Origin: a virus
Lineage: Duplodnaviria; Heunggongvirae; Uroviricota; Caudoviricetes
IMG/VR virus record: IMGVR_UViG_2718218305_000006
Reading direction: 5' to 3' (one strand)
DNA: 64,000 bases
The stretch's first letter is position 1. Every line of letters begins with the position of its first letter. Below, piece by piece: positions 215 to 46,038 of this stretch. The notes beneath the pieces are model-generated. The model searched no databases. It had not been told where the DNA came from and saw nothing but the letters and a program-made list of their open reading frames with translations. Position numbers and translations under genes: made by a program.

Positions 215-493
215 GTGGTGCATTACAAGAAACTTAACAATTCTGATAATTCAGCCGTCTTTGCCAGCAGGCACGGGCGGTGTTCTCATGCATTCAAATC
301 TGACTGGTTCCAGCATGACCCATGCACTGAAGAACAGGCCGAATGGCTGATTCAGTGCTACCGCAGACGTGGTTACGAGTTTCAGAAAGATCTCAGCTTC
401 GATCGTCGTCACTGGATAATCTCCGCCAGGCTCCCTTATTCCGAACGCCCACCGCGTCCGTCCCGCACATTCCAGCAGCGCATCTGGAGGTAA
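215..493 (+). CDS. hypothetical protein (92 aa) immediately upstream of DUF968 gene
   Basis: ORF ends ..QQRIWR overlapping the next start; same slot and similar C-terminal pattern as 41150..41422 (..RQRVWR) in prophage 2. Confidence 0.35.
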   Translation: MVHYKKLNNSDNSAVFASRHGRCSHAFKSDWFQHDPCTEEQAEWLIQCYRRRGYEFQKDLSFDRRHWIISARLPYSERPPRPSRTFQQRIWR

Positions 494-494
494 C

Positions 495-1559
495 GTGCGG
501 GTATTACTTCGACCTGTTCTGGTACCGGAACTCGGGCTGGTGATCGTTAAGCCGGGCCGTGAATCCATGCCGGTATTCCACAATACCCGGGTACTGGTGG
601 AGCCGGAACCGAAAAGCATGCGTAATCTGCCGTCCGGGGTCGTTCCTGCCGTTCGCCAGCCGCTGGCGGAGGATAAATCATTACTGCCATTTTTCAGCGA
701 CGAACGAGTGATTCGTGCTGCTGGTGGCGCTGGCGCATTGTCTGACTGGTTACTGCGCCATGTTAAATCCTGCCAGTGGCCACACGGTGATTATCACCAC
801 AGTGAAACCGTCATTCACCGTTATGGTACCGGCGCAATGGTGTTGTGCTGGCACTGCGACAACCAGCTGCGCGACCAGACCTCCGAATCACTGGAACATC
901 TGGCTCAACAAAACCTGGCAGCTTGGATGATTGACGTCATACGCCATGCAATGAATGGCTCGCAGGAGCGTGAATTATCTCTGGCTGAATTATCCTGGTG
1001 GGCGGTCCGCAATCAGGTGGCGGACGCGCTACCGGAAGCGGTATTACGTCGTTCGCTGGGGTTGCGTGCGGAAAAAATCCGCTCAATGTACCGTGAAAGC
1101 GACATCGTACCGGGAGAGCAGACCGCCACCGGCATACTGAAGCAGCGCACAAAAAATATTGCGCTACCGCCTCACGTCCACCAGCACCAGCAACAGAACC
1201 CACCACAGGAAAAGACGGTGGTCAGCATTGCCGTTGATCCGGAATCTCCGGCTCAGTATCTCCAGCGCCAGAAACCACAACGGGAAGAGATGCCTGTATA
1301 CACGCGCTGGGTAAAAACGCAGAAATGCATGACATGCGGTAATCAGGCAGATGATCCGCATCACATCATTGGTCATGGACTGGGAGGGATGGGAACAAAG
1401 GCTGATGATTTGTTTGTTATTCCGCTGTGCCGTAAATGCCATAGCGAACTACACGCCGGGGTAAAAGATTTTGAAGAAAAACACGGCAGCCAGCTGTTGT
1501 TGCTGATTCGTTTTTTAATGCACGCGAGAAATTCGGGTGTTCTGAAGTGGAAAGCATAA
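495..1559 (+). CDS. DUF968-family prophage protein (YdfU-like)
   Basis: 354-aa ORF with GTG start and Cys/His-rich C-terminus; sits upstream of rusA-Q; paralogue at 41370..42473. Confidence 0.65.
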   Translation: MRVLLRPVLVPELGLVIVKPGRESMPVFHNTRVLVEPEPKSMRNLPSGVVPAVRQPLAEDKSLLPFFSDERVIRAAGGAGALSDWLLRHVKSCQWPHGDYHHSETVIHRYGTGAMVLCWHCDNQLRDQTSESLEHLAQQNLAAWMIDVIRHAMNGSQERELSLAELSWWAVRNQVADALPEAVLRRSLGLRAEKIRSMYRESDIVPGEQTATGILKQRTKNIALPPHVHQHQQQNPPQEKTVVSIAVDPESPAQYLQRQKPQREEMPVYTRWVKTQKCMTCGNQADDPHHIIGHGLGGMGTKADDLFVIPLCRKCHSELHAGVKDFEEKHGSQLLLLIRFLMHARNSGVLKWKA

Positions 1560-1925
1560 ATGACTGAACGCATAGAATTTGTTTTGCCTTACCCGCCAAC
1601 GGTGAACACTTACTGGCGTCGTCGTGGCAGCACATATTTTGTATCAAAAGCCGGGGAGCGTTATCGCCGGGCAGTGGCGCTTATTGTTCGCCAGCAGCGG
1701 CTGAAATTAAGCCTGTCCGGAAGGTTGGCAATAAAAATTATTGCAGAACCACCGGATAAGCGCCGCCGTGACCTGGACAATATCCTGAAAGCACCACTGG
1801 ATGCGTTGACGCATGCCGGACTTCTCATAGACGACGAGCAGTTTGATGAAATCAATATTGTGCGCGGTCAGCTCGTTCCTGGTGGGCGGCTGGGCGTGAA
1901 GATTTACAAAATTGAGAGTGAGTGA
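1560..1925 (+). CDS. rusA: Holliday junction resolvase RusA
   Basis: 121-aa translation MTERIEFVLPYPPTVNTYWRRRG..DLDNILKAPLDALTHAGLLIDDEQ matches the RusA family; nin-region position. Confidence 0.85.
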   Translation: MTERIEFVLPYPPTVNTYWRRRGSTYFVSKAGERYRRAVALIVRQQRLKLSLSGRLAIKIIAEPPDKRRRDLDNILKAPLDALTHAGLLIDDEQFDEINIVRGQLVPGGRLGVKIYKIESE

Positions 1926-2488
1926 TCGTAAATATGATATACCCGGAAATTACAGGCAAAAGCGGCGAGCATTTACGTCTAAAAACGCTGGAAGCCGTCT
2001 GGATCCAGGGGAAATTACGGATGTGGGGGCGTTGGTCGTATATAGGTGGTAGCAAAACAGGAAATATGTTCAATCAGTTGCTGGCATCCAAAAAACTGAC
2101 AAAAACCGCAATCAATGAAGCCCTGCGTAGAATCAGGGAGTCAGGGATTGATAAACCAGAGCTGGAAGCATTCTTGCGAGAGATGATCGCTGGCAGACAG
2201 AAGAGCTGGTTGTCTCACTGTACTGATGCAGAGGCGTTACGCATTGATGGGGTGATAAGTAAAGCGCTTGCACGTTATCCTGGATTGATTTATATCCTGC
2301 GGCAAAGATACGAAGGGCGGGGGATGAGTAAACGCAAAATGGCTGAATTGTTGAATGAGGTTCACCCTGAGTGGTGTTACGCCACGTGCCGTAATCGCAT
2401 AGATGCGTGGTTGAAAATGGCAGAGTTTATGCTCTATCTGCCGATGCGTGATGCATTCTCTTCCGGGGATCTAAAAACCGTCTGTTGA
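1922..2488 (+). CDS. late-gene antiterminator Q-like protein
   Basis: 188-aa ORF overlapping the rusA stop (GTGA), directly followed by a sigma70-like promoter and terminator; N-terminus shared with 42842..43408. Confidence 0.7.
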   Translation: MIVNMIYPEITGKSGEHLRLKTLEAVWIQGKLRMWGRWSYIGGSKTGNMFNQLLASKKLTKTAINEALRRIRESGIDKPELEAFLREMIAGRQKSWLSHCTDAEALRIDGVISKALARYPGLIYILRQRYEGRGMSKRKMAELLNEVHPEWCYATCRNRIDAWLKMAEFMLYLPMRDAFSSGDLKTVC

Positions 2489-2514
2489 CTCAATCTGTTA
2501 TCCGGGGCTATATT
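2485..2514 (+). promoter_or_regulatory. candidate late promoter pR' (TTGACT-N17-CTATAT)
   Basis: -35 TTGACT overlaps the Q stop codon; 17-bp spacer; -10 CTATAT/TATATT. Confidence 0.45.
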
Positions 2515-2577
2515 CCTCACGCGCCAGCAAAATCTGGCGTCGGGATTAGCACCCCGGATGTTTACGGAGCGATATGA

Positions 2578-2597
2578 GACGCGCCCGCGTCTTTTTT
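2578..2597 (+). terminator. rho-independent terminator (tR'-like)
   Basis: GACGCG-CC-CGCGTC hairpin followed by TTTTTT, about 65 nt downstream of the candidate pR'. Confidence 0.5.
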
Positions 2598-2761
2598 CAT
2601 ATCGTTTGCACAGTCACATTCGCGATTTATGGCGGGCTGTGTGGGGGAGCCGAAAGGCTCGCCGGTTTCCGTACCCGGTAGTGCTAACCCCGCACAGTTC
2701 GCCACCACGATGATTAGCACCTGACGGTGGCGATAATGTCCAAATGTACGGAGTTATCGTT

Positions 2762-3319
2762 ATGACCACTCAGATTTCTGTCGAAACTCTTTCCCCAATT
2801 ACACACAACCAAATTCCCGTTATCACTACCGAGTTACTGGCACAGCTTTACTGTACCGAGATCAACAACATCAAAGTAAATTACACCCGTAATTCCGAGC
2901 GTTTTGTTGAGGGTAAACACTTTTTCAAGGTTGTTGGTGATGAGTTGAAAAATTTGCGGGTTACTTTAAGTAACTCACAAACGCCTGTTTCCCCCAAAAC
3001 CCGCTCCCTCATCCTCTGGACAGAACGAGGCGCAGCCCGTCACGCCAAAATGCTCGAAACCGATCAGGCGTGGGATGTGTTCGAAAAACTGGAAGACTGC
3101 TATTTCAGACAAAAGGATCCGTCAGCGCCAGCTTCATGCCAGAAAAGTTACGACACGCGAGTTCTCTGTTATCAGCGAGGCGGTGTCACTGTTTCCACAA
3201 TTCAGTTGCGGGATGATGATATTGTTATTTCCCTTGAGTCATGGCTGGAACTGGCGAGAGCCAATGGTTGGTTTGTTGTTCGCAGAGATAAACTGGTGGA
3301 AAGGCTGATGCAGCTTTAA
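2762..3319 (+). CDS. ORF6N-domain (antirepressor N-terminal-like) protein
   Basis: GGAG RBS 8 nt upstream of ATG; motifs NSERFVEGKHFF..LWTERGAARHAKML..AWDVFEKLEDCYF resemble the ORF6N/antirepressor N-domain. Confidence 0.5.
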   Translation: MTTQISVETLSPITHNQIPVITTELLAQLYCTEINNIKVNYTRNSERFVEGKHFFKVVGDELKNLRVTLSNSQTPVSPKTRSLILWTERGAARHAKMLETDQAWDVFEKLEDCYFRQKDPSAPASCQKSYDTRVLCYQRGGVTVSTIQLRDDDIVISLESWLELARANGWFVVRRDKLVERLMQL

Positions 3320-3477
3320 AAAAGTTCTTGCAATTTTAGCCATAAACTGCTTCAATTCCGGTACGCTTCGCAAAGCTGTATCGCGAGGCGAACCAAGCGC
3401 ATGAACTTTACCAGAACCCGCCATTGAGCGGGTTTTTTATTGCGGAATTAATTACGGACCGTTATTATTCTGCTCCC

Positions 3478-3553
3478 GGCCCTTTAGCTCAGTGGTGAGA
3501 GCGAGCGACGCATAATCGCCAGGTCGCTGGTTCGAATCCAGTACAACGCGCCA
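3478..3553 (+). pseudogene. chimeric tRNA remnant (tRNA-Ile 5' part, tRNA-Arg 3' acceptor strand)
   Basis: 5' 56 nt near-identical to tRNA-Ile at 44708; 3' ACAACGCGCCA matches tRNA-Arg at 44884; acceptor strands cannot pair; position 33 is G instead of T. Confidence 0.5.
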
Positions 3554-3567
3554 CACTTATTTTCCCT

Positions 3568-3593
3568 GGCTCGCTTTTGCGGGCCTTTTTTTT
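3568..3593 (+). terminator. rho-independent terminator after tRNA remnant
   Basis: GGCTCGC-TTTT-GCGGGCC stem-loop followed by a T8 run. Confidence 0.55.
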
Positions 3594-3659
3594 AAATGTC
3601 TCACAATTCAGGCGGTTGACTGTTGTCTGGTTTGCGGGGAGTTTGTTAAAAGAAACTGG

Positions 3660-3765
3660 CATGGTGAATCCCCCTGTGCGGAGGGGCAATCAGTGAGTAG
3701 GTATATGGGATAATCGCGGATTCAGGTGCTGGTACTGAATTCACCGGGAGGCACCCGGCACCATG
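3660..3765 (+). other. conserved 106-nt structured element upstream of nanS-p (copy 1)
   Basis: Bounded by CATGGTG..CACCATG; internal CCCCTGTGCGGAGGGG hairpin; second copy at 45760..45865. Confidence 0.3.
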
Positions 3766-4032
3766 CAAGAAAAAGAATGTGCATGCAAACATGCCCCTCT
3801 CCGGAGGGGCATTTTTTATGGGTAAAAAATGCCCGAATGGGTTCGGGCAATAGCATGAGATACTGATATTGTTGTGTTGTTATCGTGTGGATTTTAACCA
3901 GGGTTTATCAGGCTGCGCAACTGCGTGGCCTTTTTTCATTTCTTGGGCTGTAGTCCCCGTGTGTCATTCAGGCTTCCGGACTACAGCCCACTCCATATCT
4001 GATTTAATACACTATCCCGGCCGGGAGGAATA

Positions 4033-5979
4033 ATGACATTTAAACATTATGATGTTGTCAGGGCGGCGTCGCCGTCAGACCTTGCTGATGCACTTGCTCA
4101 AAAAATTCGTGAAGGATGGCAACCATACGGCGGGCCGTTTTCTTCGTATACGGATGATGGCGCAGCACTTATTCAGGCGATTGTCGCAGAAGGTGATGTG
4201 AGCACACCTGTTGTGGTGAAGCCGACAGGTGGAGAAGGTGCAGTAATCAGCGCCACCAGAGACCCGGAGTATTACTTTGTTGTGGTTCTGGCGGGGCAGT
4301 CAAACAGCATGGCATATGGTGAAGGCCTTCCGCTGCCGGAGACATATGACCGTCCGGACCCGCGTATTAAGCAGCTGGCGCGCCGCAGTACGGTGACACC
4401 GGGCGGTGCAGCATGCAAATATAACGACATCATTCCGGCGGACCATTGTCTGCATGATGTGCAGGACATGAGCCGCCTTAACCATCCGAAAGCGGACCTG
4501 TCAAAGGGGCAGTACGGTACCGTGGGGCAGGGGCTGCATATTGCCAAAAAACTGCTGCCGTTTATACCGGAGAATGCGGGCATTCTGCTGGTTCCGTGCT
4601 GTCGTGGTGGTTCAGCGTTCACCACCGGAGCTGATGGCACATACAGTGACGCGAGTGGTGCCTCGGAGAATTCAACCCGCTGGGGTGTGGACAAGCCGCT
4701 GTATAAGGACCTTATCGGTCGAACAAAAGCAGCACTGAAGAAGAACCCGAAAAATGTGCTGTTTGCCGTGGTGTGGATGCAGGGGGAATTTGATTTTGAC
4801 GGCACGCCCGGAAATCACGCAGCACAGTTTGGTGCGCTGGTTGATAAATTCCGTGCAGACCTGACGGATATGGCAGGTCAGTGCGTCGGTGGCTCTGCTG
4901 GCGGTGTTCCCTGGATATGTGGAGATACGACGTATTTCTGGAAGCAGAAGAACGAATCCACGTACCAGACGGTGTACGGCAGCTATAAAAACAAAACGGA
5001 AAAGAATATCCATTTCGTACCGTTCATGACCGATGAGAACGGGGTGAATGTGCCGACGAACAAACCGGAAGAAGACCCGGACATTCCGGGTATCGGATAT
5101 TACGGTTCGAAATGGCGTGACAGCTCAGCCACCTGGACGTCACAGGACAGGGCGAGCCATTTCAGCGCCTGGGCACGCCGTGGGATTATTTCCGACCGTC
5201 TGGCAACGGCGATTTTGCGCCATGCGGGAAGAGTGGCGCTAAACGCGGGGGCATCATCGACAGTATCAGAGGTGCGCCCGTCATCGCCTTCCGGTGCAGA
5301 AGCCACAGGCGTCACAACACTGCTCTCTTACCTTGCCAGCGAGTCAGAGGGAAGCCTGAAAGTACAGGGATGGTCAGCCAGTGGCGGCAGGGCAGAAGTG
5401 GTCAGCGATGCGGAGGGAACCGGAGGTAAGGCAGTGAAGCTGACCAAGGAAGCCGGTAAAAGCAGCTGGGTGCTGGAGTACGCCGCGGGCAACGGTGCGG
5501 CTCTGTTACAGAAAGGGGGGCAGATTCGCTGCCGCTTTAAGGTTTCGGGAGCGCTGGCTGCGAACCAGTATGTTATGGCGTTTTACTGGCCGGTATCTTC
5601 ACTGCCACAGGGCGTTGCCCTGACCGGAGACGGGGGGAATAACCTGCTGGCAGCGTTCTACATCCAGACAGATGCAAAAGACCTGAATGTGATGTACCAC
5701 AATGCGAAAGTAGCGACAAACAACCTGAAACTGGGAACCTTTGGCGCATTTGATAACGAATGGCATACGCTGGCTTTCCGCTTTGCCGGGAATAACAGCC
5801 TTCAGGTGACGCCGGTTATTGATGGTCAGGATGGCACACCGTTCACGCTGACGCAGTCACCGGTCAGTGCATTTGCGGCGGATAAACTGCATGTGACAGA
5901 CATTACCAGGAATGCGACTTACCCGGTGCTGATTGACAGCATTGCGGTGGAAGTGAACAACGCGGATGCCGCGGCATGA
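4033..5979 (+). CDS. nanS-p: prophage sialate O-acetylesterase NanS-p (DUF1737 + SGNH/SASA domain)
   Basis: 648 aa; GGAGG RBS; N-terminal MTFKHYDVVRAASPSDLA (DUF1737-like) and VVLAGQSNSMAYGEG SGNH block I; same slot as nanS-p downstream of stx in Stx phages. Confidence 0.8.
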   Translation: MTFKHYDVVRAASPSDLADALAQKIREGWQPYGGPFSSYTDDGAALIQAIVAEGDVSTPVVVKPTGGEGAVISATRDPEYYFVVVLAGQSNSMAYGEGLPLPETYDRPDPRIKQLARRSTVTPGGAACKYNDIIPADHCLHDVQDMSRLNHPKADLSKGQYGTVGQGLHIAKKLLPFIPENAGILLVPCCRGGSAFTTGADGTYSDASGASENSTRWGVDKPLYKDLIGRTKAALKKNPKNVLFAVVWMQGEFDFDGTPGNHAAQFGALVDKFRADLTDMAGQCVGGSAGGVPWICGDTTYFWKQKNESTYQTVYGSYKNKTEKNIHFVPFMTDENGVNVPTNKPEEDPDIPGIGYYGSKWRDSSATWTSQDRASHFSAWARRGIISDRLATAILRHAGRVALNAGASSTVSEVRPSSPSGAEATGVTTLLSYLASESEGSLKVQGWSASGGRAEVVSDAEGTGGKAVKLTKEAGKSSWVLEYAAGNGAALLQKGGQIRCRFKVSGALAANQYVMAFYWPVSSLPQGVALTGDGGNNLLAAFYIQTDAKDLNVMYHNAKVATNNLKLGTFGAFDNEWHTLAFRFAGNNSLQVTPVIDGQDGTPFTLTQSPVSAFAADKLHVTDITRNATYPVLIDSIAVEVNNADAAA

Positions 5980-6684: not shown

Positions 6685-6900
6685 ATGTACCAGATGGAAA
6701 AAATCACAACGGGTGTGTCATACACCACGTCAGCGGTGGGGACGGGATACTGGTTACTGCAGCTGCTGGACAAAGTCTCTCCGTCCCAGTGGGTGGCGAT
6801 AGGTGTGCTGGGGAGTCTGCTGTTTGGCCTGCTGACGTATCTGACTAACCTGTATTTCAAAATTAAAGAGGACCGTCGCAAGGCTGCCCGGGGAGATTAG
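6685..6900 (+). CDS. S: class II holin (phage 21 S-like pinholin), dual-start
   Basis: 71 aa, [10 protein letters not shown].. with two in-frame Met codons (antiholin/holin pattern); resembles phage 21 S holin as recalled. Confidence 0.85.
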
Positions 6901-7503: not shown

Positions 7504-8037
7504 ATGAACACCAAAATCAAATACGGCCTGTCGGCTGCCGTTCTGGCGCTGATTGCCGCTGGTGCGCCTGCGCCTGACATTCTCGACCAGTTTCTGGATG
7601 AAAAGGAAGGTAACCACACCACGGCATACCGTGATGGTGCGGGTATCTGGACCATCTGCCGAGGTGCCATCATGGTGGATGGTAAGCCTGTGATTCCTGG
7701 CATGAAGCTGTCGAAGGAAAAATGCGACCGGGTTAACGCCATTGAGCGTGATAAGGCGCTGGCATGGGTGGAGAAAAACATCAAAGTGCCACTGACCGAA
7801 CCCCAGAAAGCGGGTATTGCGTCATTCTGTCCTTACAACATTGGCCCAGGTAAGTGTTTCCCGTCGACGTTTTATAAACGAATTAATGCAGGTGATCGCA
7901 GGGGAGCGTGTGAGGCGATTCGCTGGTGGATTAAGGACGGTGGGCGTGATTGCCGCACACGTTCAAATAACTGCTACGGACAGGTTATTCGTCGTGACCA
8001 GGAAAGCGCATTAGCTTGTTGGGGGATAGATCAGTGA
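7504..8037 (+). CDS. R: SAR endolysin (lysozyme R)
   Basis: 177 aa; N-terminal signal-anchor-release segment [16 protein letters not shown] then lysozyme-like domain; near-identical to 48943..49476. Confidence 0.85.
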
Positions 8038-8501
8038 GAAGAGTAACCGCGATTATTTACGCTCTGGTTATCTGCATCATCGTCTGTCTGTTATGGGCTG
8101 TTAATCATTACCGCGATAACGCCATCACCTACAAAGCGCAGCGCGATAAAAAAGCCAGAGAGCTGGAACAGGCGAATGCCACCATTACTGACATGCAGGT
8201 GCGCCAGCGTGATGTTGCTGCGCTCGATGCAAAATACTCGAAGGAATTAGCCGATGCGAGAGCTGAAAATGAAACTCTGCGTGCTGATGTTGCCGCTGGT
8301 CGTAAGCGCCTGCGGATCAACGCCACCTGCCACGGTACCGTGCGTGAAGCCACCGGCACCTCCGGCGTGGATAATGCAACCGGCCCCCGACTGGCAGACA
8401 CCGCTGAACGGGATTATTTCATCCTCAGAGAACGGTTGATGATGATGCAGAAGCAGCTGGAAGGGGCGCAGGAATATATCCGCACTCAGTGTATTAACTA
8501 G
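8034..8501 (+). CDS. Rz: i-spanin Rz
   Basis: GTG start overlapping the R stop; N-terminal TM then coiled-coil; embedded Rz1 in +1 frame. Confidence 0.8.
8269..8439 (+). CDS. Rz1: o-spanin Rz1 (lipoprotein), embedded in Rz
   Basis: [15 protein letters not shown] lipobox followed by a Pro-rich segment, entirely inside Rz. Confidence 0.65.
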
Positions 8502-32973: not shown

Positions 32974-33031
32974 AAAAAGGGCGGCAGAGCAGCCACGGAG
33001 TAAAACTGATACCGCCAAACGTCACCAGAAA
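32974..33031 (-). ncRNA. dicF: DicF small RNA
   Basis: Minus strand reads TTTCTGGTGACGTTTGGCGGTATCAGTTTTACTCCGTGGCTGCTCTGCCGCCCTTTTT, matching recalled DicF with its terminator hairpin. Confidence 0.7.
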
Positions 33032-40118: not shown

Positions 40119-40408
40119 CCTGGCCTGAAGCATTCACAACGGTAGGAATTGCGATGGCGGTGGCGCTGGTGGTGTATTCGATTTGCCGCTGGGGATAAAA
40201 ACGGTTTGCGGGAAAAGGATAGTTAAGTAGAATTGCTGCGGGTGCTTGAGGCTATCTGCCTCGGGCATGAACACCAACGGCAGATAGAGAAAAGCCCCAG
40301 TTAACATTACGCGTCCTGCAAGACGCTTAACATTAATCTGAGGCTCAATCCATGCTGAACACATGTAGGTTAGCCTCTTACGTGCCGAAAGGCAAGGAGA
40401 AGCAGGCT

Positions 40409-40564
40409 ATGAAGCAGCAAAAGGCGATGTTAATCGCCCTGATCGTCATCTGTTTAACCGTCATAGTGACGGCACTGGTAACGAGGAAAGACCTCTGCGA
40501 GGTGCGAATCCGAACCGGTCAGACGGAGGTCGCTGTCTTCGTAGACTACGAATCTGAGAAGTAA
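40409..40564 (+). CDS. hok: Hok/Gef-family type I toxin (overlapping mok-like frame from 40352)
   Basis: MKQQKAMLIALIVICLTVIVTALVTRKDLCEVRIRTGQTEVAVFVDYESEK parallels Hok (..LTRKSLCEIRYRDG..EVAAFMAYE..). Confidence 0.7.
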   Translation: MKQQKAMLIALIVICLTVIVTALVTRKDLCEVRIRTGQTEVAVFVDYESEK

Positions 40565-42473: not shown

Positions 42474-42485
42474 AAGAGGTTACTG

Positions 42486-42791
42486 ATGCGTATAGAGTTT
42501 GTTTTGCCTTACCCGCCGACGGTGAACACCTACTGGCGACGTCGTGGCAGCACATATTTTGTATCAAAAGCCGGTGAGCGTTATCGCCGGGATGTGGCAC
42601 TTATTGTTCGCCAGCAGCGGCTGAAATTAAACCTGTCCGGAAGGCTGGCGATAAAGATTATTGCAGAGCCACCGGATAAGCGCCGTCGTGACCTGGACAA
42701 TATCCTGAAAGCACCACTGGATGCGCTGACGCATGCCGGACTTCTCATAGACGACGAGCAGTTTGATGAAATCAATATTGTGCGCGGCTAG
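42486..42791 (+). CDS. rusA: RusA resolvase, truncated by premature TAG
   Basis: Identical to the copy-1 N-terminus up to ..EINIVRG then TAG where copy 1 has CAG; downstream frame still encodes ..LVSGGRLGVKIYKIESE. Confidence 0.75.
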   Translation: MRIEFVLPYPPTVNTYWRRRGSTYFVSKAGERYRRDVALIVRQQRLKLNLSGRLAIKIIAEPPDKRRRDLDNILKAPLDALTHAGLLIDDEQFDEINIVRG

Positions 42792-42841
42792 CTCGTTTCT
42801 GGTGGGCGGCTGGGCGTGAAGATTTACAAAATTGAAAGTGA

Positions 42842-43408
42842 GTGAGCATAAATATGATATACCCGGAAATTACAGGCAAAAGCGGTGAGCATTTACGCCT
42901 GAAAACGCTGGAAAGTGTCTGGATCCAGGGGAAACTGCGTATGTGGGGGCGTTGGTCGTATATTGGCGACGGTAAGACGGGAAATATGTTCAACCAATTA
43001 CTGACCTCTAAAAAGCTGACAAAAACGGCAATTAACGAGGCGCTCCGGAGGATGAAAAAAGCGGGTCTGGACAAACCTGAACTTGAGGCTTTTTTGCGGG
43101 ATATGATCAACGGCAATCAAAAAAGCTGGCTGGCACATTGTACCGATTCAGAGGCGTTAATAATCGATAGGGTTATTGGTGAAGTACTGGCAGGTTATCC
43201 CGGGCTGCTCAATGTTCTGAGTCAGCGTTATGTGGGGCGGGGGATGACTAAGCGCAAAATGGCTGAATTGCTGAATGATGCACATCCGGAATGGAGTTTA
43301 AGAACCTGTGAAAGACGCATTGAGCATTGGCTAAAGGTGGCAGAATTTATTTTGTACAAACCAATGGTTATGGCTTTTGGTATAGAGAAAAAAGTTATTG
43401 CTTTTTGA
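42842..43408 (+). CDS. late-gene antiterminator Q-like protein
   Basis: 188 aa; N-terminal two-thirds near-identical to 1922..2488, C-terminus diverged; followed by conserved element and terminator. Confidence 0.75.
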   Translation: MSINMIYPEITGKSGEHLRLKTLESVWIQGKLRMWGRWSYIGDGKTGNMFNQLLTSKKLTKTAINEALRRMKKAGLDKPELEAFLRDMINGNQKSWLAHCTDSEALIIDRVIGEVLAGYPGLLNVLSQRYVGRGMTKRKMAELLNDAHPEWSLRTCERRIEHWLKVAEFILYKPMVMAFGIEKKVIAF

Positions 43409-43487
43409 CGTAAAAACTGCTTCAATTCCGGTAAGCTTCGCAAAGCTGTACCGCGAGGCGAATAGCAGACATGGACATTTGAAAGAG

Positions 43488-43509
43488 CCCGCTTTTTGCG
43501 GGTTTTTTT
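43488..43509 (+). terminator. rho-independent terminator (tR'-like)
   Basis: CCCGC-TTTTT-GCGGG followed by a T7 run about 80 nt after Q. Confidence 0.5.
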
Positions 43510-43632
43510 ATGACTGAAAAACGGCACGGGGCGTTAAACGCGCTGGTGGTTGCTAATACCGGTCTTTCAACTTGCTGGCTTTTTCGACAAGAGTTATTGG
43601 TATGTCACGTTAACCGGAAAAGGGAAAAAGAC

Positions 43633-43830
43633 ATGCTAAAACAGCAGGATATGACAGAAACCGCCAGAGTGGTGTTTAATGAATTAAGCGTTACCGAACC
43701 GGCGACAGTCGGGGAGATTGCGCAGAATACTTACCTTTCACGCGAACGCTGCCAGTTAATACTGACCCAGCTGGTTATGGCGGGTCTGGCAGACTATCAG
43801 TGCGGTTGTTACAGACGCATTCAGTCCTGA
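43633..43830 (+). CDS. small hypothetical protein (65 aa), possible winged-helix
   Basis: Internal ATG with purine-rich RBS; ..TVGEIAQNTYLSRERCQLILTQLVMAG.. Confidence 0.35.
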   Translation: MLKQQDMTETARVVFNELSVTEPATVGEIAQNTYLSRERCQLILTQLVMAGLADYQCGCYRRIQS

Positions 43831-43965: not shown

Positions 43966-44679
43966 ATGGCTGTTGTCTGTTCAGTTATCATGGTTTGCTC
44001 CCCAATTAATATTTTTCTTGAAAAGGATACGTTGTCACTTAAGCCAGGCTCAGTCGTTCTGGCCACCAAATGCATCAGGGAGCTTTTCCTTATGCATTAT
44101 GGCAAAGTTAAAATTGTCGATATAAGCGAATCCGTCGTAAGTCAATATCTGGAAAGTCAGCATAAGCTGACGAGGACTCGTCTGACTGACATTCCGCTTT
44201 ACCTGTTGCTGGAACCCAACAATCCTGCGTTGGCTGCGGCTTTAATTACCAGCCAGGGATTTTCCGGAGAGGTCACGGATATGTTTCTTATGATGGCCTG
44301 CCTGTCTCTGTTTGAAACAGATGAACGGATGTCATTGTTTTTAAGTGGATGTTTATCCAGCATAAGTGCCAAAGTCAGGGCGATAATTCAGACAGATATA
44401 TCAGCAAGCTGGACGCTTGGTGCGATTGCTCTACAGTTGCATATGAGTGAGAGTTTGTTAAAGACAAAACTGAAAAATGAAGGGGGCATGTTCAGTCGCT
44501 TGTTGCTGGAAGAGCGGATGCGTGTTGCTGTAAATATGTTATGTTCCCGGTATGGATATGGACAGGCTGTAGCAGAAAAATGTGGTTATTCAAGCCGGTC
44601 CTACTTTATTTCTGTATTTCACCGCTATTATGGCTTCCCGCCAGACAGATATGTATCCAGGCAAGGGCTTGATTATTGA
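43966..44679 (+). CDS. AraC-family transcriptional regulator
   Basis: C-terminal AraC HTH (..SWTLGAIALQLHMSESLLKTKLK..RSYFISVFHRYYGFPP); located between Q and the tRNA genes. Confidence 0.7.
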   Translation: MAVVCSVIMVCSPINIFLEKDTLSLKPGSVVLATKCIRELFLMHYGKVKIVDISESVVSQYLESQHKLTRTRLTDIPLYLLLEPNNPALAAALITSQGFSGEVTDMFLMMACLSLFETDERMSLFLSGCLSSISAKVRAIIQTDISASWTLGAIALQLHMSESLLKTKLKNEGGMFSRLLLEERMRVAVNMLCSRYGYGQAVAEKCGYSSRSYFISVFHRYYGFPPDRYVSRQGLDY

Positions 44680-44707: not shown

Positions 44708-44783
44708 GGCCCTTTAGCTCAGTGGTGAGAGCGAGCGACTCATAATCGCCAGGTCGCTGGTTCAAATCCAGCAAGGGCCACCA
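44708..44783 (+). tRNA. tRNA with CAT anticodon (ileZ-like tRNA-Ile2 or tRNA-Met)
   Basis: Cloverleaf: acceptor GGCCCTT/AAGGGCC, anticodon loop CTCATAA, T-loop GGTTCAAATCC, 3' CCA encoded. Confidence 0.8.
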
Positions 44784-44883: not shown

Positions 44884-44960
44884 GCGTTGTTAGCTCAGCC
44901 GGACAGAGCAATTGCCTTCTAAGCAATCGGTCAGTGGTTCGACTCCACTACAACGCGCCA
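44884..44960 (+). tRNA. tRNA-Arg (anticodon TCT, argO-like)
   Basis: Acceptor GCGTTGT/ACAACGC, anticodon loop CTTCTAA, T-loop GGTTCGACTCC, CCA encoded. Confidence 0.85.
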
Positions 44961-45725: not shown

Positions 45726-45759
45726 TTTTTTTGTTTGCTGTTTATTAAAAACACTTCTG

Positions 45760-45865
45760 CATGGTGAATCCCCCTGTGCGGAGGGGCGATCAGCAACCAG
45801 GTATATGGGATAATCGCGGATTCAGGTGCTGATACTGAATTCACCGGGAGGCACCCGGCACCATG
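45760..45865 (+). other. conserved 106-nt structured element upstream of nanS-p (copy 2)
   Basis: Same termini CATGGTG..CACCATG and core as 3660..3765, with a cluster of substitutions in the middle. Confidence 0.3.
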
Positions 45866-46038
45866 CTTTGCCACAAAAGTGTTGTTTCTGTTTTTCTCAA
45901 ACTATCATCGTTATCCCTTTATTTCCGGCTGCGCATGGCGCGGCTTTTTTTTACGACCAGCCACTGGCAGATGGTCATCCTGTGATTTGATTCCGGTTCC
46001 GGCTTTTTAACTCTGTTCCTGTACACGGGAGAAATTCG

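What the first reader, a model, noticed from the sequence alone, without database searches (positions are those of the whole stretch)
2485..3470. Two late-promoter/terminator modules bracket the ORF6N gene in prophage 1
Q of prophage 1 is followed by its own promoter-like TTGACT-N17-CTATAT and terminator. After the ORF6N gene there is a second region (about 3330..3470) that is near-identical to the element directly following Q in prophage 2, including the terminator. This suggests a mosaic junction where an ORF6N module with one Q/qut type was recombined into another.
Basis: seen in the sequence. Interest (0 to 1): 0.35.

Follow-up and report, generated by a model that had tools for sequence, protein, structure and literature searches.

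The report
Antirepressor RNA-switch cassette between Q and late promoter
The first "late promoter/terminator" after the prophage Q gene is really the promoter and small RNA (IsrK/C4 type) of a known antirepressor cassette. That cassette sits between Q and the true late promoter, which is the second element shared with prophage 2, so this is an ordinary though neatly resolved piece of phage mosaicism.

Summary
Both sequence elements exist, but only one looks like a late promoter.

**Module 1 (2485-2600)** matches three curated Rfam families: isrK, c4-a1b1, and downstream C4 antisense RNA. It is the promoter and leader of an immI-like antirepressor operon (ORF6N/AnrP, 2762-3319). The layout is the same as the Gifsy-1 locus antQ-isrK-orf45-anrP-isrJ.

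**Module 2 (3319-3441)** is the constant partner of this Q family (Pfam DUF1133, a remote Q21 homologue):
- It occurs once, on Q's strand, in every DUF1133 locus that had enough downstream DNA.
- Only 28 of 80 viral loci carry the cassette.
- Its layout copies phage 21 pR': -35, a 17-nt spacer, a -10-like hexamer, a TAnGCT element identical to the phage 21 sigma-dependent pause element, then a terminator, a tRNA, and P21-type lysis genes.

**Similarity to prophage 2** is real but overstated. It is 79% over about 121 nt (E about 1e-23). The promoter-proximal core is 48/52 identical. The terminator half is a different allele (28/52).

**The mosaic junction** is real but lies elsewhere. A clean crossover inside Q (2363-2376) joins a cassette-less backbone to a donor carrying the Q 3' end, the cassette and pR'.

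Verdict: a new member of a known kind, of modest interest.

The parts
1934..2488 (+). Q1, a 184-aa antiterminator Q-like protein (Pfam DUF1133, PHROG 753). Its stop codon TGA (2486-2488) lies inside the -35 hexamer TTGACT of the next promoter.
   Evidence: Pfam DUF1133 E=8.5e-103 plus weak Phage_antitermQ. PHROG 753 'anti-termination protein Q-like'. A family profile hits the Q21 structures 6p18/6jnx at E=6.5e-6. 77% aa identity to Q2.
2363..2376 (.). Crossover interval inside Q (HPEW codons). To the left the window matches a cassette-less lineage; to the right it matches a cassette-bearing lineage.
   Evidence: Window 479-2376 differs from L003 at one position (923), and window 2363-3788 differs from L035 at one position (3694). 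The last L035 mismatch to the left is at 2362 and the first L003 mismatch to the right is at 2377.
2485..2514 (+). PisrK-type promoter: -35 TTGACT 2485-2490, -10 TATATT 2509-2514 (or CTATAT 2508-2513). The predicted start is G2521.
   Evidence: Promoter scan, 10/12 match. The Rfam isrK model starts at 2521. The same promoter is conserved in Gifsy-1 and VT2-Sakai. PisrK activity was shown experimentally in Gifsy-1 (PMC4825925).
2521..2597 (+). IsrK-type small RNA, the a1/b1 target-mimic part of a C4 system. It has two 5' hairpins and an intrinsic terminator (stem 2576-2593, T-run to 2599). The b1 core AGCAC is at 2548-2552.
   Evidence: Rfam RF01394 isrK 74.4 bits (gathering score 50) and RF03163 c4-a1b1 at 2508-2560, 49.8 bits (gathering score 46.7). 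Fold. Terminator scan.
2625..2709 (+). C4-type antisense RNA (equivalent to STnc1160 of Gifsy-1). The b' core GUGCU at 2681-2685 sits in an unpaired internal loop.
   Evidence: Rfam RF01695 C4 78 bits (gathering score 45). MFE -49 kcal/mol, z=-5.75. b1/b'/b2 covary across four allele types.
2629..2727 (+). 32-codon leader ORF overlapping C4, the positional equivalent of Gifsy-1 orf45. The b2 repeat AGCAC is at 2716-2720.
   Evidence: Translation and alignment. Unlike Gifsy-1, it stops 34 nt before the antirepressor ATG.
2762..3319 (+). ORF6N-domain antirepressor (AnrP homologue, 185 aa from ATG 2762).
   Evidence: Pfam ORF6N E=3e-20. PHROG 2379 'anti-repressor' E=3e-91. 56% identity to Gifsy-1 AnrP with the same N-terminus MTTQISVETL.
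3319..3367 (+). Inferred late promoter pR' with its Q-loading region. It comprises an A-tract 3319-3324, -35 TTGCAA 3328-3333, a 17-nt spacer, TG 3348-3349, a -10-like TTCAAT 3351-3356, and a sigma-dependent-pause-like TACGCT 3362-3367.
   Evidence: Motif search: 2 hits in the window, 0 expected. A relaxed motif occurs once per DUF1133 locus in 103 loci. The layout, and a TAAGCT identical to the annotated phage 21 SDPE, are seen.
3363..3441 (+). Predicted pR'-tR' short transcript of about 75-80 nt. It has a conserved 5' part to 3393 (8-bp stem 3364-3371/3383-3390), a variable middle 3394-3412, and the tR' terminator (stem 3413-3421/3428-3436 plus T-run).
   Evidence: Fold -25.8 kcal/mol, z=-2.7. 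Allelic 3' halves. It occupies the position of IsrJ in Gifsy-1. The transcription start is not mapped.
3470..3546 (+). Degenerate copy of the phage tRNA-Ile(CAU)/'Met' gene that follows pR'-tR' in relatives.
   Evidence: Rfam tRNA partial hit at 3484-3543 (37 bits, model positions 7-64). ARAGORN does not call it. An intact copy is present in Sakai Sp10.
42854..43408 (+). Q2, the DUF1133 Q of prophage 2. Its last codons overlap the -35 of module 2.
   Evidence: sequence.
43389..43512 (+). Prophage 2 counterpart of module 2, with no cassette. It has TTGCTT 43398-43403, TTCAAT 43421-43426, TAAGCT 43432-43437, and a terminator at about 43480-43510.

Best explanation
Prophage 1 carries a self-contained, RNA-gated antirepressor cassette of about 0.85 kb. 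It is of the IsrK / C4 / AnrP type, which is immI-like. The cassette sits exactly between the Q gene and Q's own late promoter.

Module 1 is the cassette's constitutive-type promoter together with the IsrK small RNA.
- Most transcripts stop at the IsrK terminator.
- Read-through transcripts carry the C4 antisense RNA, a short leader ORF and the antirepressor gene.
- They end at the next terminator, which is tR' of module 2.
- The b1 site in IsrK, the b' site in C4 and the b2 site in front of the antirepressor gene form a three-way pairing code that decides whether the antirepressor is translated. By analogy with Gifsy-1, free IsrK in trans opens the leader. By analogy with P1/P7, C4 pairing closes it.
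- The antirepressor then inactivates a prophage repressor and triggers induction, including Q expression.

Module 2 is the true late unit. It is a phage-21-type pR' with a -35, a 17-nt spacer where Q is expected to bind, a weak extended -10, a TAnGCT sigma-dependent pause element at the start site, and the terminator tR'.
- Without Q it yields a short RNA of about 75-80 nt.
- With Q, RNA polymerase reads through into the tRNA remnant, nanS-p and the P21-type lysis genes.

The present arrangement arose by homologous recombination inside Q (2363-2376). That event brought the Q 3' end, the cassette and pR' from a donor prophage onto a different backbone.

Shown here: the family matches, the architecture, the distribution, the covariation and the breakpoint. 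Inferred: the transcription start sites, Q responsiveness, the pause, antirepressor activity and its target.
For: 1. Module 1 and its downstream leader reach curated Rfam thresholds for isrK, c4-a1b1 and C4. Gifsy-1 gives the same three hits in the same order, followed by anrP and isrJ.

2. The ORF6N protein is 56% identical to Gifsy-1 AnrP and falls in antirepressor PHROG 2379.

3. b1, b' and b2 change together in four allele types (AGCAC/GUGCU/AGCAC in the window; GGCGU/ACGCC/GGCGU in Gifsy-1 and VT2-Sakai; GGAAC/GUUCC/GGAAC in L037, L048 and L057; GGUCU/AGACC/GGUCU in Salmonella L091). This indicates a working RNA-RNA code.

4. The same promoter and leader follow three unrelated upstream genes: a DUF1133 Q here, a Q82-like Q in Gifsy-1, and nin60 in VT2-Sakai. 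The promoter therefore belongs to the cassette, not to Q.

5. All 80 IMG/VR DUF1133-Q loci have module 2 except L042, whose DNA ends at the 3' end of the ORF6N gene. Only 28 have the cassette. In cassette-less loci module 2 overlaps or abuts the Q stop codon. A relaxed motif occurs exactly once, on Q's strand, in 103 of 114 loci. That includes distant Qs of 52-65% identity from Klebsiella, Enterobacter, Buttiauxella and Phytobacter.

6. The DUF1133 profile hits the Q21 structures at E=6.5e-6. The annotated phage 21 record shows -35, a 17-nt spacer holding the QBE, -10, the start site, SDPE TAAGCTG, a terminator, tRNAs and the S21 holin. Module 2 has the same order and spacing, and TAAGCT (prophage 2) or TACGCT (prophage 1) at the same place. 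A tRNA remnant and a P21 holin, lysozyme and Rz lie downstream.

7. In Gifsy-1 the distance from the isrK start to the isrJ terminator is 910 nt. This equals the reported polycistronic RNA of about 910 nt, which an isrJ probe detects (PMC4825925). The isrJ promoter region overlaps the 3' end of Q82-like genes in cassette-less Enterobacter and Klebsiella phages. IsrJ is thus the positional analogue of module 2.

Against: - No transcription start, pause or Q-dependent read-through has been measured for module 2 or for any DUF1133 Q.
- The proposed -10 (TTCAAT) lacks the usually essential A at position 2. It relies on a TGn extension and a good -35. TAnGCT could instead be the real -10.
- No clear Q21-like direct-repeat QBE is visible in the E. 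coli-type spacer. Only a subgroup of distant relatives has AGTGAGCA, which resembles the phage 21 subsites, and there it is also coding sequence.
- The Hfq-CRAC list for O157 Sakai has no entry at the Sp10 copy of module 2. That screen excluded peaks within 100 nt of genes.
- The window's leader ORF is not translationally coupled to the antirepressor by an AUGA overlap as in Gifsy-1. The details of the switch may therefore differ.
- Sy et al. [quoted passage not shown]
Confidence: 0.82

Rival explanations
1. Module 1 is a genuine Q-utilised late promoter/terminator (a second qut type), so prophage 1 has two Q-responsive units in tandem, one on each side of the ORF6N gene.
For: Module 1 directly follows Q, with the Q stop codon inside its -35, and has a strong sigma-70 match and an intrinsic terminator. 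The early transcribed region contains a -10-like CAAAAT at about +8 to +13, which could act as a sigma-dependent pause element. Sy et al. 2020 refer to IsrK as the product of an antitermination-regulated promoter.
Against: The same promoter and leader sit after an unrelated Q family in Gifsy-1 and after nin60 in VT2-Sakai, whereas Q proteins are specific for their own binding element. Fifty-two of 80 DUF1133 loci lack module 1, yet all but one truncated locus have module 2. CAAAAT is the conserved a1 hairpin loop of the c4-a1b1 family, which also occurs in P1/P7 where no Q is involved. Module 1 has no TAnGCT element.
Confidence: 0.06
2. Module 2 is not the late promoter. It is an independent small-RNA gene, or a decayed remnant, that merely travels next to Q. 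Late genes would then be expressed from another promoter or by read-through from the early operon.
For: The -10 hexamer is poor and no start site is mapped. The 3' half is allelic like a seed region, as in the AgvB/AsxR sRNAs found nearby. IsrJ, its Gifsy-1 analogue, was described only as an sRNA.
Against: The TTG-N20-yTnAAT-N5-TAnGCT layout is conserved family-wide at the Q stop codon, even where it overlaps coding sequence. It has the same layout and the same SDPE hexamer as experimentally defined pR'21. No other promoter/terminator unit lies between Q and the lysis genes in cassette-less loci. Being an sRNA and being the pR' short transcript are not exclusive, as StxS shows.
Confidence: 0.08
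3. The resemblance between 3319-3441 and 43389-43512 is only shared ancestry of two sister prophages and carries no functional meaning.
For: The two prophages are closely related across rusA and Q.
Against: Within the element, conservation is sharply partitioned. The promoter-proximal core is 48/52 identical, against 28/52 for the rest. The flanks are non-homologous (ORF6N against the Q 3' end). The core is retained across genera while everything around it changes.
Confidence: 0.04

Closest known systems
Salmonella Gifsy-1 locus antQ - isrK - orf45 - anrP - isrJ (Hershko-Shalev et al. 2016, PMC4825925)
   Same: The order is identical: Q, then a promoter whose -35 TTGAC contains the Q stop codon, then IsrK with its terminator, a C4/STnc1160 RNA overlapping a leader ORF, an ORF6N antirepressor (56% identity), a short terminated RNA whose -35 abuts the antirepressor stop codon, and a tRNA. 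The same three Rfam families are hit.
   Different: The Q belongs to another family (DUF1133/PHROG 753 here, Q82-like PHROG 304 in Gifsy-1). The downstream short RNA is unrelated in sequence, with no isrJ hit. The b1/b'/b2 specificity allele differs (AGCAC here, GGCGU in Gifsy-1). The leader ORF has 32 codons and does not overlap the antirepressor start.
immI region of phages P1/P7 (c4 antisense RNA, a1 b1 / a2 b2 targets, icd, ant); Rfam C4 clan CL00128
   Same: There is a promoter-proximal a1/b1 element, a C4 RNA processed from the same transcript, repeated target sites before an antirepressor gene, and allele-specific complementary changes that define specificity. The P1/P7 heteroimmunity principle is from my own knowledge; the covariation is shown here.
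   Different: The host here is a lambdoid prophage. An intrinsic terminator lies between a1/b1 and C4, which turns a1/b1 into a separate small RNA (IsrK). The antirepressor is an ORF6N protein, not P1 Ant1/2, and there is no icd homologue.
Phage 21 late regulatory unit Q21 - pR' - QBE - SDPE - tR' (Yin, Kaelber & Ebright 2019; annotated record OL657228)
   Same: The Q protein is a remote homologue (profile E=6.5e-6). The promoter starts within a few bases of the Q stop codon and has a 17-nt spacer. A TAAGCT/TAnGCT element lies at the start site, a terminator follows within about 50-80 nt, and then come tRNA gene(s) and an S21-type holin.
   Different: Sequence identity of the proteins is too low for a single-sequence hit. 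No ATTGAGCA/AATGAGCA direct repeat is present. The -10 is TTCAAT with a TGn extension instead of AACACT. The distance from the -10 to TAnGCT is 5 nt, not 7. The terminated RNA is longer.
StxS and lambda 6S RNA, short pR'-tR' transcripts of lysogens (Sy, Lan & Tree 2020, PMC7547250)
   Same: A constitutive promoter directly after Q terminates immediately downstream. This predicts an abundant short RNA in lysogens that could have acquired trans-acting functions.
   Different: The Q family and the sequence are different. No expression, Hfq binding or target is known for the RNA predicted here.
ant cassette in the nin region of Stx2 phages (VT2-Sakai orf34-ant; 933W group)
   Same: The same promoter, IsrK, C4 and N-terminal ORF6N domain are present. 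Nucleotide identity is about 78-81% from window 2498 onward, and the Rfam hits are the same.
   Different: It is located about 2.5 kb upstream of Q, between nin60 and roi. It has its own terminator after ant. The antirepressor is longer (244 aa, with a different C-terminal domain).

Membership tests
IsrK / C4 (immI-like) antirepressor cassette | RNA elements matching the curated models isrK (RF01394), c4-a1b1 (RF03163) and C4 (RF01695), in that order on one strand | tested here: met
   74.4, 49.8 and 78.0 bits, all above the gathering scores, at 2521-2597, 2508-2560 and 2625-2709.
IsrK / C4 (immI-like) antirepressor cassette | Antisense-target complementarity (b1, b', b2) maintained by compensatory change | tested here: met
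   Four allele types show perfect three-way compensation across 16 distinct cassette sequences.
IsrK / C4 (immI-like) antirepressor cassette | Antirepressor gene immediately downstream on the same transcript | tested here: met
   ORF6N protein at 2762-3319. PHROG 2379 anti-repressor E=3e-91; 56% identity to AnrP.
IsrK / C4 (immI-like) antirepressor cassette | Leader ORF translationally coupled to the antirepressor by overlapping stop/start (AUGA), as in Gifsy-1 orf45 | tested here: not met
   The 32-codon ORF 2629-2727 ends 34 nt before ATG 2762. This is a feature of the Gifsy-1 member, not of the Rfam families.
IsrK / C4 (immI-like) antirepressor cassette | IsrK in trans activates, or C4 represses, antirepressor translation; the antirepressor induces the prophage | not testable with these tools
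   Known only from experiments in Gifsy-1 (PMC4825925).
Q21-type Q-dependent late transcription unit | Q protein homologous to Q21 | tested here: met
   The profile of 20 DUF1133 proteins hits 6p18/6jnx at E=6.5e-6 over residues 95-183, plus the N-terminal W-x-G-W motif. A single-sequence search finds nothing, so the homology is remote.
Q21-type Q-dependent late transcription unit | Sigma-70 promoter starting at the end of Q | tested here: inconclusive
   TTGCAA-17-(TGc)TTCAAT is conserved in all family members, but the -10 lacks A at position 2 and no start site is mapped.
Q21-type Q-dependent late transcription unit | Sigma-dependent pause element (-10-like) in the initial transcribed region | tested here: met
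   TACGCT at 3362-3367 and TAAGCT at 43432-43437. The latter is identical to the annotated phage 21 SDPE TAAGCT(G). This is a sequence match only; pausing is untested.
Q21-type Q-dependent late transcription unit | Q-binding element: two directly repeated 8-bp subsites between -35 and -10 | tested here: inconclusive
   The spacer TTTTAGCCATAAACTGC is conserved but shows no evident direct repeat. AGTGAGCA in some distant relatives resembles AATGAGCA.
Q21-type Q-dependent late transcription unit | Intrinsic terminator shortly downstream, followed by late (lysis) genes on the same strand | tested here: met
   Terminator hairpin at 3413-3436 plus T-run. P21 holin at 6685-6900, lysozyme at 7504-8037, Rz at 8016-8501.
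Q21-type Q-dependent late transcription unit | Q-dependent read-through of the terminator | not testable with these tools
   Needs reporter or in vitro transcription assays.
Moron (Hendrix-type autonomous insertion in a lambdoid genome) | Own promoter and own terminator flanking a gene inserted between two conserved phage genes or sites | tested here: inconclusive
   It has its own promoter, and presence/absence polymorphism at a fixed site is clear. In the Q context it has no terminator of its own after the gene and uses tR'. The VT2-Sakai copy does have one.

The most novel reading that the evidence does not exclude
The Q / pR' junction is not a random landing place but a selected docking site for RNA-gated antirepressor cassettes. 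The same cassette has been fitted, base-precisely, between Q and pR' in two unrelated Q/qut systems: Q21-like DUF1133 in Escherichia, Shigella and Salmonella, and Q82-like in Gifsy-1. In both, the Q stop codon lies inside the cassette's -35 and the antirepressor stop codon abuts the pR' -35.

In this position the cassette would gain three things:
- It borrows tR' as its terminator.
- It is co-transcribed with Q by early-operon read-through.
- It lets one induced prophage release an antirepressor that switches on co-resident prophages, for example prophage 2 of this window, which has the same Q/pR' type but no cassette.

In addition, the allelic 3' halves of the pR' short RNA would be prophage-specific trans-acting sRNAs of the StxS kind.
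Probability: 0.2. Interest if true: 0.55.

Novelty: new member of a known kind. Interest (0 to 1): 0.3.

Why it matters
- **Annotation.** A strong promoter plus terminator directly after Q is easily mistaken for pR'/tR', and one paper words it that way for IsrK. Here it is a riboregulated antirepressor switch.
- **The late promoter of a common Q family.** The analysis pins down, by comparison only, the likely late promoter and Q-loading region of the DUF1133 Q family. This family is very common in E. coli, including O157 prophages such as Sp10, and is still labelled 'unknown function' in Pfam.
- **Known sRNAs.** It suggests that the Salmonella sRNA IsrJ is the pR' short transcript of Gifsy-1.
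- **Pathogen biology.** Antirepressor cassettes with different RNA specificities may govern SOS-independent induction and cross-induction in polylysogens that carry Stx phages.

None of this changes current concepts.

Tried and rejected
- **Rfam on module 2.** A permissive E-value search of 2400-3650 found no family for module 2. isrJ did not hit, and the best matches were chance-level Trp/Leu leader hits at the terminator.
- **Single-sequence PDB search with Q1.** No hit. Only the family profile reached Q21. NCBIfam had no model for Q1, AnrP or AntQ.
- **Literature search by sequence.** Searching for the module 2 core string found nothing.
- **Hfq-CRAC sRNA table for O157 Sakai.** No entry at the Sp10 copy of module 2. 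The StxS paper's supplement is not held, so its TSS data could not be checked.
- **RNA duplex prediction.** RNAduplex of IsrK against the leader was not informative: -61 kcal/mol against -54 +/- 5 for shuffles. The covariation table is the useful evidence.
- **5' stem of the module 2 RNA.** I considered whether the 8-bp stem is a conserved RNA structure. It never varies within the E. coli type and is not clearly kept in L096 or the distant group. No covariation can therefore be claimed, and conservation fits DNA-level (promoter, pause) constraint at least as well.
- **A LexA box in PisrK.** Considered by eye; none is evident.
- **Source of the window.** No complete RefSeq E. coli genome carries this exact combination. 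The best full-length match is 94.1%.
Full report
**1. What is in the sequence**

Prophage 1 encodes a DUF968 protein (495-1559), RusA (1560-1925) and a 184-aa Q-like protein (Q1, 1934-2488).

Directly after Q1 come the following elements:
- TTGACT at 2485-2490, with the Q stop codon TGA inside it.
- CTATAT/TATATT at 2508-2514.
- A hairpin and T-run terminator at 2576-2599.

An ORF6N-domain gene follows. I place its start at ATG 2762, because the product then begins MTTQISVETL like its Gifsy-1 homologue. Its stop codon (3317-3319) runs straight into an A-tract and a second promoter-like and terminator element (3319-3441).

The counterpart in prophage 2 (43389-43512) begins inside the last codons of Q2 (42854-43408).

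Blastn of 2400-3600 against 43300-43600 aligns 3318-3438 with 43388-43508 at 79% identity, E=8e-24. Identity is uneven:
- 48/52 in 3342-3393.
- 16/23 in the -35 region.
- 28/52 (ungapped) in the terminator-bearing half.

**2. Module 1 is the leader of a known antirepressor cassette, not a late promoter**

Rfam at gathering thresholds places three families in this stretch:
- isrK (RF01394) at 2521-2597.
- c4-a1b1 (RF03163) at 2508-2560.
- C4 antisense RNA (RF01695) at 2625-2709.

The Gifsy-1 prophage gives the same three hits in the same order. They are followed by anrP (56% identical to the ORF6N protein), isrJ and a tRNA.

That locus has been dissected experimentally (PMC4825925):
- PisrK drives isrK-orf45-anrP.
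- Most transcripts stop at the IsrK terminator.
- Read-through RNA is translationally silent until short IsrK pairs with it in trans.
- AnrP then leads to antQ expression and prophage induction.

The reported long RNA of about 910 nt is detected by an isrJ probe. It equals the distance from the isrK start to the isrJ terminator in the Gifsy-1 record, 34316 to 33406. The cassette therefore ends at the next unit's terminator. In the window the equivalent span is about 2521 to about 3438.

The RNA switch looks intact and under selection. I aligned 16 distinct cassette sequences from the window, IMG/VR contigs, a Salmonella genome, Gifsy-1 and VT2-Sakai. The loop of the second IsrK hairpin (b1), an unpaired stretch of C4 (b') and a repeat just before the antirepressor gene (b2) change together in four allele types:

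| b1 / b' / b2 | Found in |
|---|---|
| AGCAC / GUGCU / AGCAC | the window |
| GGCGU / ACGCC / GGCGU | Gifsy-1, VT2-Sakai and others |
| GGAAC / GUUCC / GGAAC | L037, L048, L057 |
| GGUCU / AGACC / GGUCU | Salmonella L091 |

This is the kind of specificity code known for c4 of P1 versus P7 (from my own knowledge).

The promoter belongs to the cassette rather than to Q. The same TTGAC-N17/18-GGGGCTATATT promoter and leader follow three different upstream genes:
- A DUF1133 Q in the window.
- A Q of a different family in Gifsy-1 (PHROG 304 against PHROG 753).
- nin60, in the nin region about 2.5 kb upstream of Q, in the Stx2 phage VT2-Sakai. That copy has its own terminator.

**3. Module 2 is the constant partner of this Q family and is built like phage 21 pR'**

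I fetched 80 IMG/VR loci encoding close relatives of Q1.
- All but one contain module 2. The exception, L042, simply ends at the 3' end of the ORF6N gene.
- Only 28 contain the cassette.
- In cassette-less loci module 2 overlaps the Q stop codon, or follows it after an 80-nt spacer.

A scan of one genome per species added Qs of only 52-65% identity, from Klebsiella, Enterobacter, Buttiauxella, Phytobacter, Citrobacter and others. At their stop codons they all show the same layout: TTGCAA, 17 nt, (TGn)TTGAAT or TTAAAT, 5 nt, TAGGCT / TAAGCT / TATGCT, a short region and a terminator.

Two motif searches quantify this:
- The strict motif hits only the two expected places in the window, with 0 expected by chance.
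- A slightly relaxed motif occurs exactly once, on Q's strand, in 103 of the 114 loci held. The eleven loci without it are Gifsy-1, VT2-Sakai, the Enterobacter phage CobraSix, phage 21, truncated or IS-disrupted loci, and one single-base variant.

The DUF1133 family is a remote relative of Q21. A profile of 20 members hits the Q21 structures 6p18/6jnx at E=6.5e-6, although a single sequence finds nothing.

The richly annotated phage 21 record shows this order:
- -35 TTGACA.
- A 17-nt spacer containing the two Q-binding subsites.
- -10 AACACT.
- The start site.
- The sigma-dependent pause element TAAGCTG at +2.
- A terminator, then tRNAs and the S21 holin.

Module 2 has the same order and spacing. 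It has TAAGCT in prophage 2, identical to the phage 21 pause element, and TACGCT in prophage 1. Downstream lie a degenerate tRNA, convergent STnc100/AgvB sRNAs, nanS-p, a P21-type holin, lysozyme and Rz.

I conclude that module 2 is pR' with its Q-loading region and tR'. By the same logic IsrJ is the pR' short transcript of Gifsy-1. Its promoter region overlaps the 3' end of Q82-like genes in Enterobacter and Klebsiella phages that lack the cassette.

Two caveats remain. The -10 candidate TTCAAT lacks the canonical A at position 2, so TAnGCT might be the true -10. No Q21-like direct repeat is evident in the spacer.

**4. Where the mosaic junction really is**

- Window 479-2376 is identical, bar one base, to a cassette-less lineage (L003).
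- Window 2363-3788 is identical, bar one base, to a cassette-bearing lineage (L035).
- The crossover therefore lies in 2363-2376, inside Q at the conserved HPEW codons.

The last roughly 125 nt of Q, the cassette, pR'/tR' and the tRNA remnant came in together by homologous recombination.

The insertion polymorphism itself has sharp ends:
- On the left, homology with cassette-less Q alleles stops at about 2462.
- On the right, it resumes at the A-tract at 3319/3320.

Further shuffling occurs inside module 2. Its conserved core links at least three alternative 3' halves, independently of cassette presence. Sakai Sp10 has a prophage-2-type 5' half with a prophage-1-type 3' half.

No complete RefSeq E. 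coli genome has exactly the window's combination. The best full-length match is 94.1% identical, and 128 of 5426 genomes have the Q-cassette-module 2 arrangement.

**5. Mechanism (shown versus inferred)**

Shown by computation: family membership of the RNAs and proteins, the architecture, the presence/absence distribution, compensatory changes in the RNA code, similarity of layout to pR'21, and the breakpoint.

Inferred from the Gifsy-1, P1/P7 and phage 21 literature:
- In the lysogen PisrK makes mostly IsrK.
- Read-through RNA is kept silent by intramolecular and C4 pairing.
- Excess IsrK opens it, and the antirepressor triggers induction.
- Q then loads at module 2 on RNA polymerase paused at TAnGCT and overrides tR'.

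The window's leader ORF (2629-2727) is not overlapped with the antirepressor start as orf45 is. The coupling step may therefore differ.

**6. Novelty and verdict**

The cassette and the concept of a Q-pR'-tR' unit are both known. What this adds is a corrected reading, a comparative definition of the late promoter of the DUF1133 Q family, and the observation that the same cassette occupies the Q/pR' junction in two unrelated Q systems.

I rate it a new member of a known kind, interest about 0.3. The most novel reading still open is a selected docking site that couples antirepressor release to the late switch and to cross-induction, together with allelic pR' sRNAs. I give it about 0.2 probability.

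Noticed in passing
window 3630-3823 (+) and 3824-3885 (-); also 45730-45902 (+): Convergent small-RNA pair downstream of pR'. It comprises STnc100 (143.7 bits) and the anti-GcvB sponge AgvB (96.5 bits). A second STnc100 copy lies in prophage 2. This is the 'moron site' sRNA arrangement described for O157 prophages.
   Followed up: partly
window 3470-3546: Degenerate tRNA. It aligns with the intact tRNA-Ile(CAU) ('Met' by ARAGORN) of Sakai Sp10, but has a changed anticodon-loop base and a non-pairing 3' acceptor strand. ARAGORN does not call it. Prophage 2 keeps intact tRNA-Met and tRNA-Arg genes at 44708-44783 and 44884-44960.
   Followed up: partly
window 42480-42845: The rusA gene of prophage 2 has an in-frame TAG (..NIVRG*LVSGG..) where prophage 1 has CAG. 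It is probably a pseudogene.
   Followed up: partly
window 43633-43830 and 43966-44679: Between pR'/tR' and the tRNAs of prophage 2 lie a 65-aa winged-helix-like ORF (weak TrmB hit) and a 237-aa ORF that looks like a regulator. They are cargo genes at the moron site and were not analysed.
   Followed up: no
window 40240-40414 and 32979-33030 (-): sok antitoxin RNA (hok/sok type I toxin-antitoxin) and DicF sRNA in prophage 2.
   Followed up: no
window 4033-5979: 648-aa protein with DUF1737, a SASA sialate O-acetylesterase domain and DUF6645 (NanS-p type). In Stx phages this gene follows stx. Here no toxin genes lie between the tRNA remnant and it.
   Followed up: no
L095 2156-2735 (Pantoea osteomyelitidis): About 580 bp of unrelated AT-rich DNA, holding a possible 101-aa ORF, lies between the DUF1133 Q stop codon and a module-2-like element. 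This looks like another, different insertion at the same Q/pR' junction.
   Followed up: partly
L087, L088 (E. coli ECMA0423, Shigella flexneri): The same Q-isrK-C4 cassette, but the antirepressor gene is interrupted after about 20 codons by an IS element.
   Followed up: partly
L003-L033 type loci, about 80 nt between Q stop and module 2: A conserved 80-nt spacer (TAGAATCTGGAGGGCGTTTGTTGTTGCACGAAG...) separates Q from pR' in one Q lineage. Its nature is unknown.
   Followed up: no
L001 (PP818812.1, 'Actinobacillus phage vB_Apl-pPE4'): This record matches the window's Q-cassette-module 2 region at 89% over 1.5 kb and carries hok, a P21-like holin and similar genes. It looks like an E. coli-type lambdoid phage, so the stated Actinobacillus host seems doubtful.
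   Followed up: no
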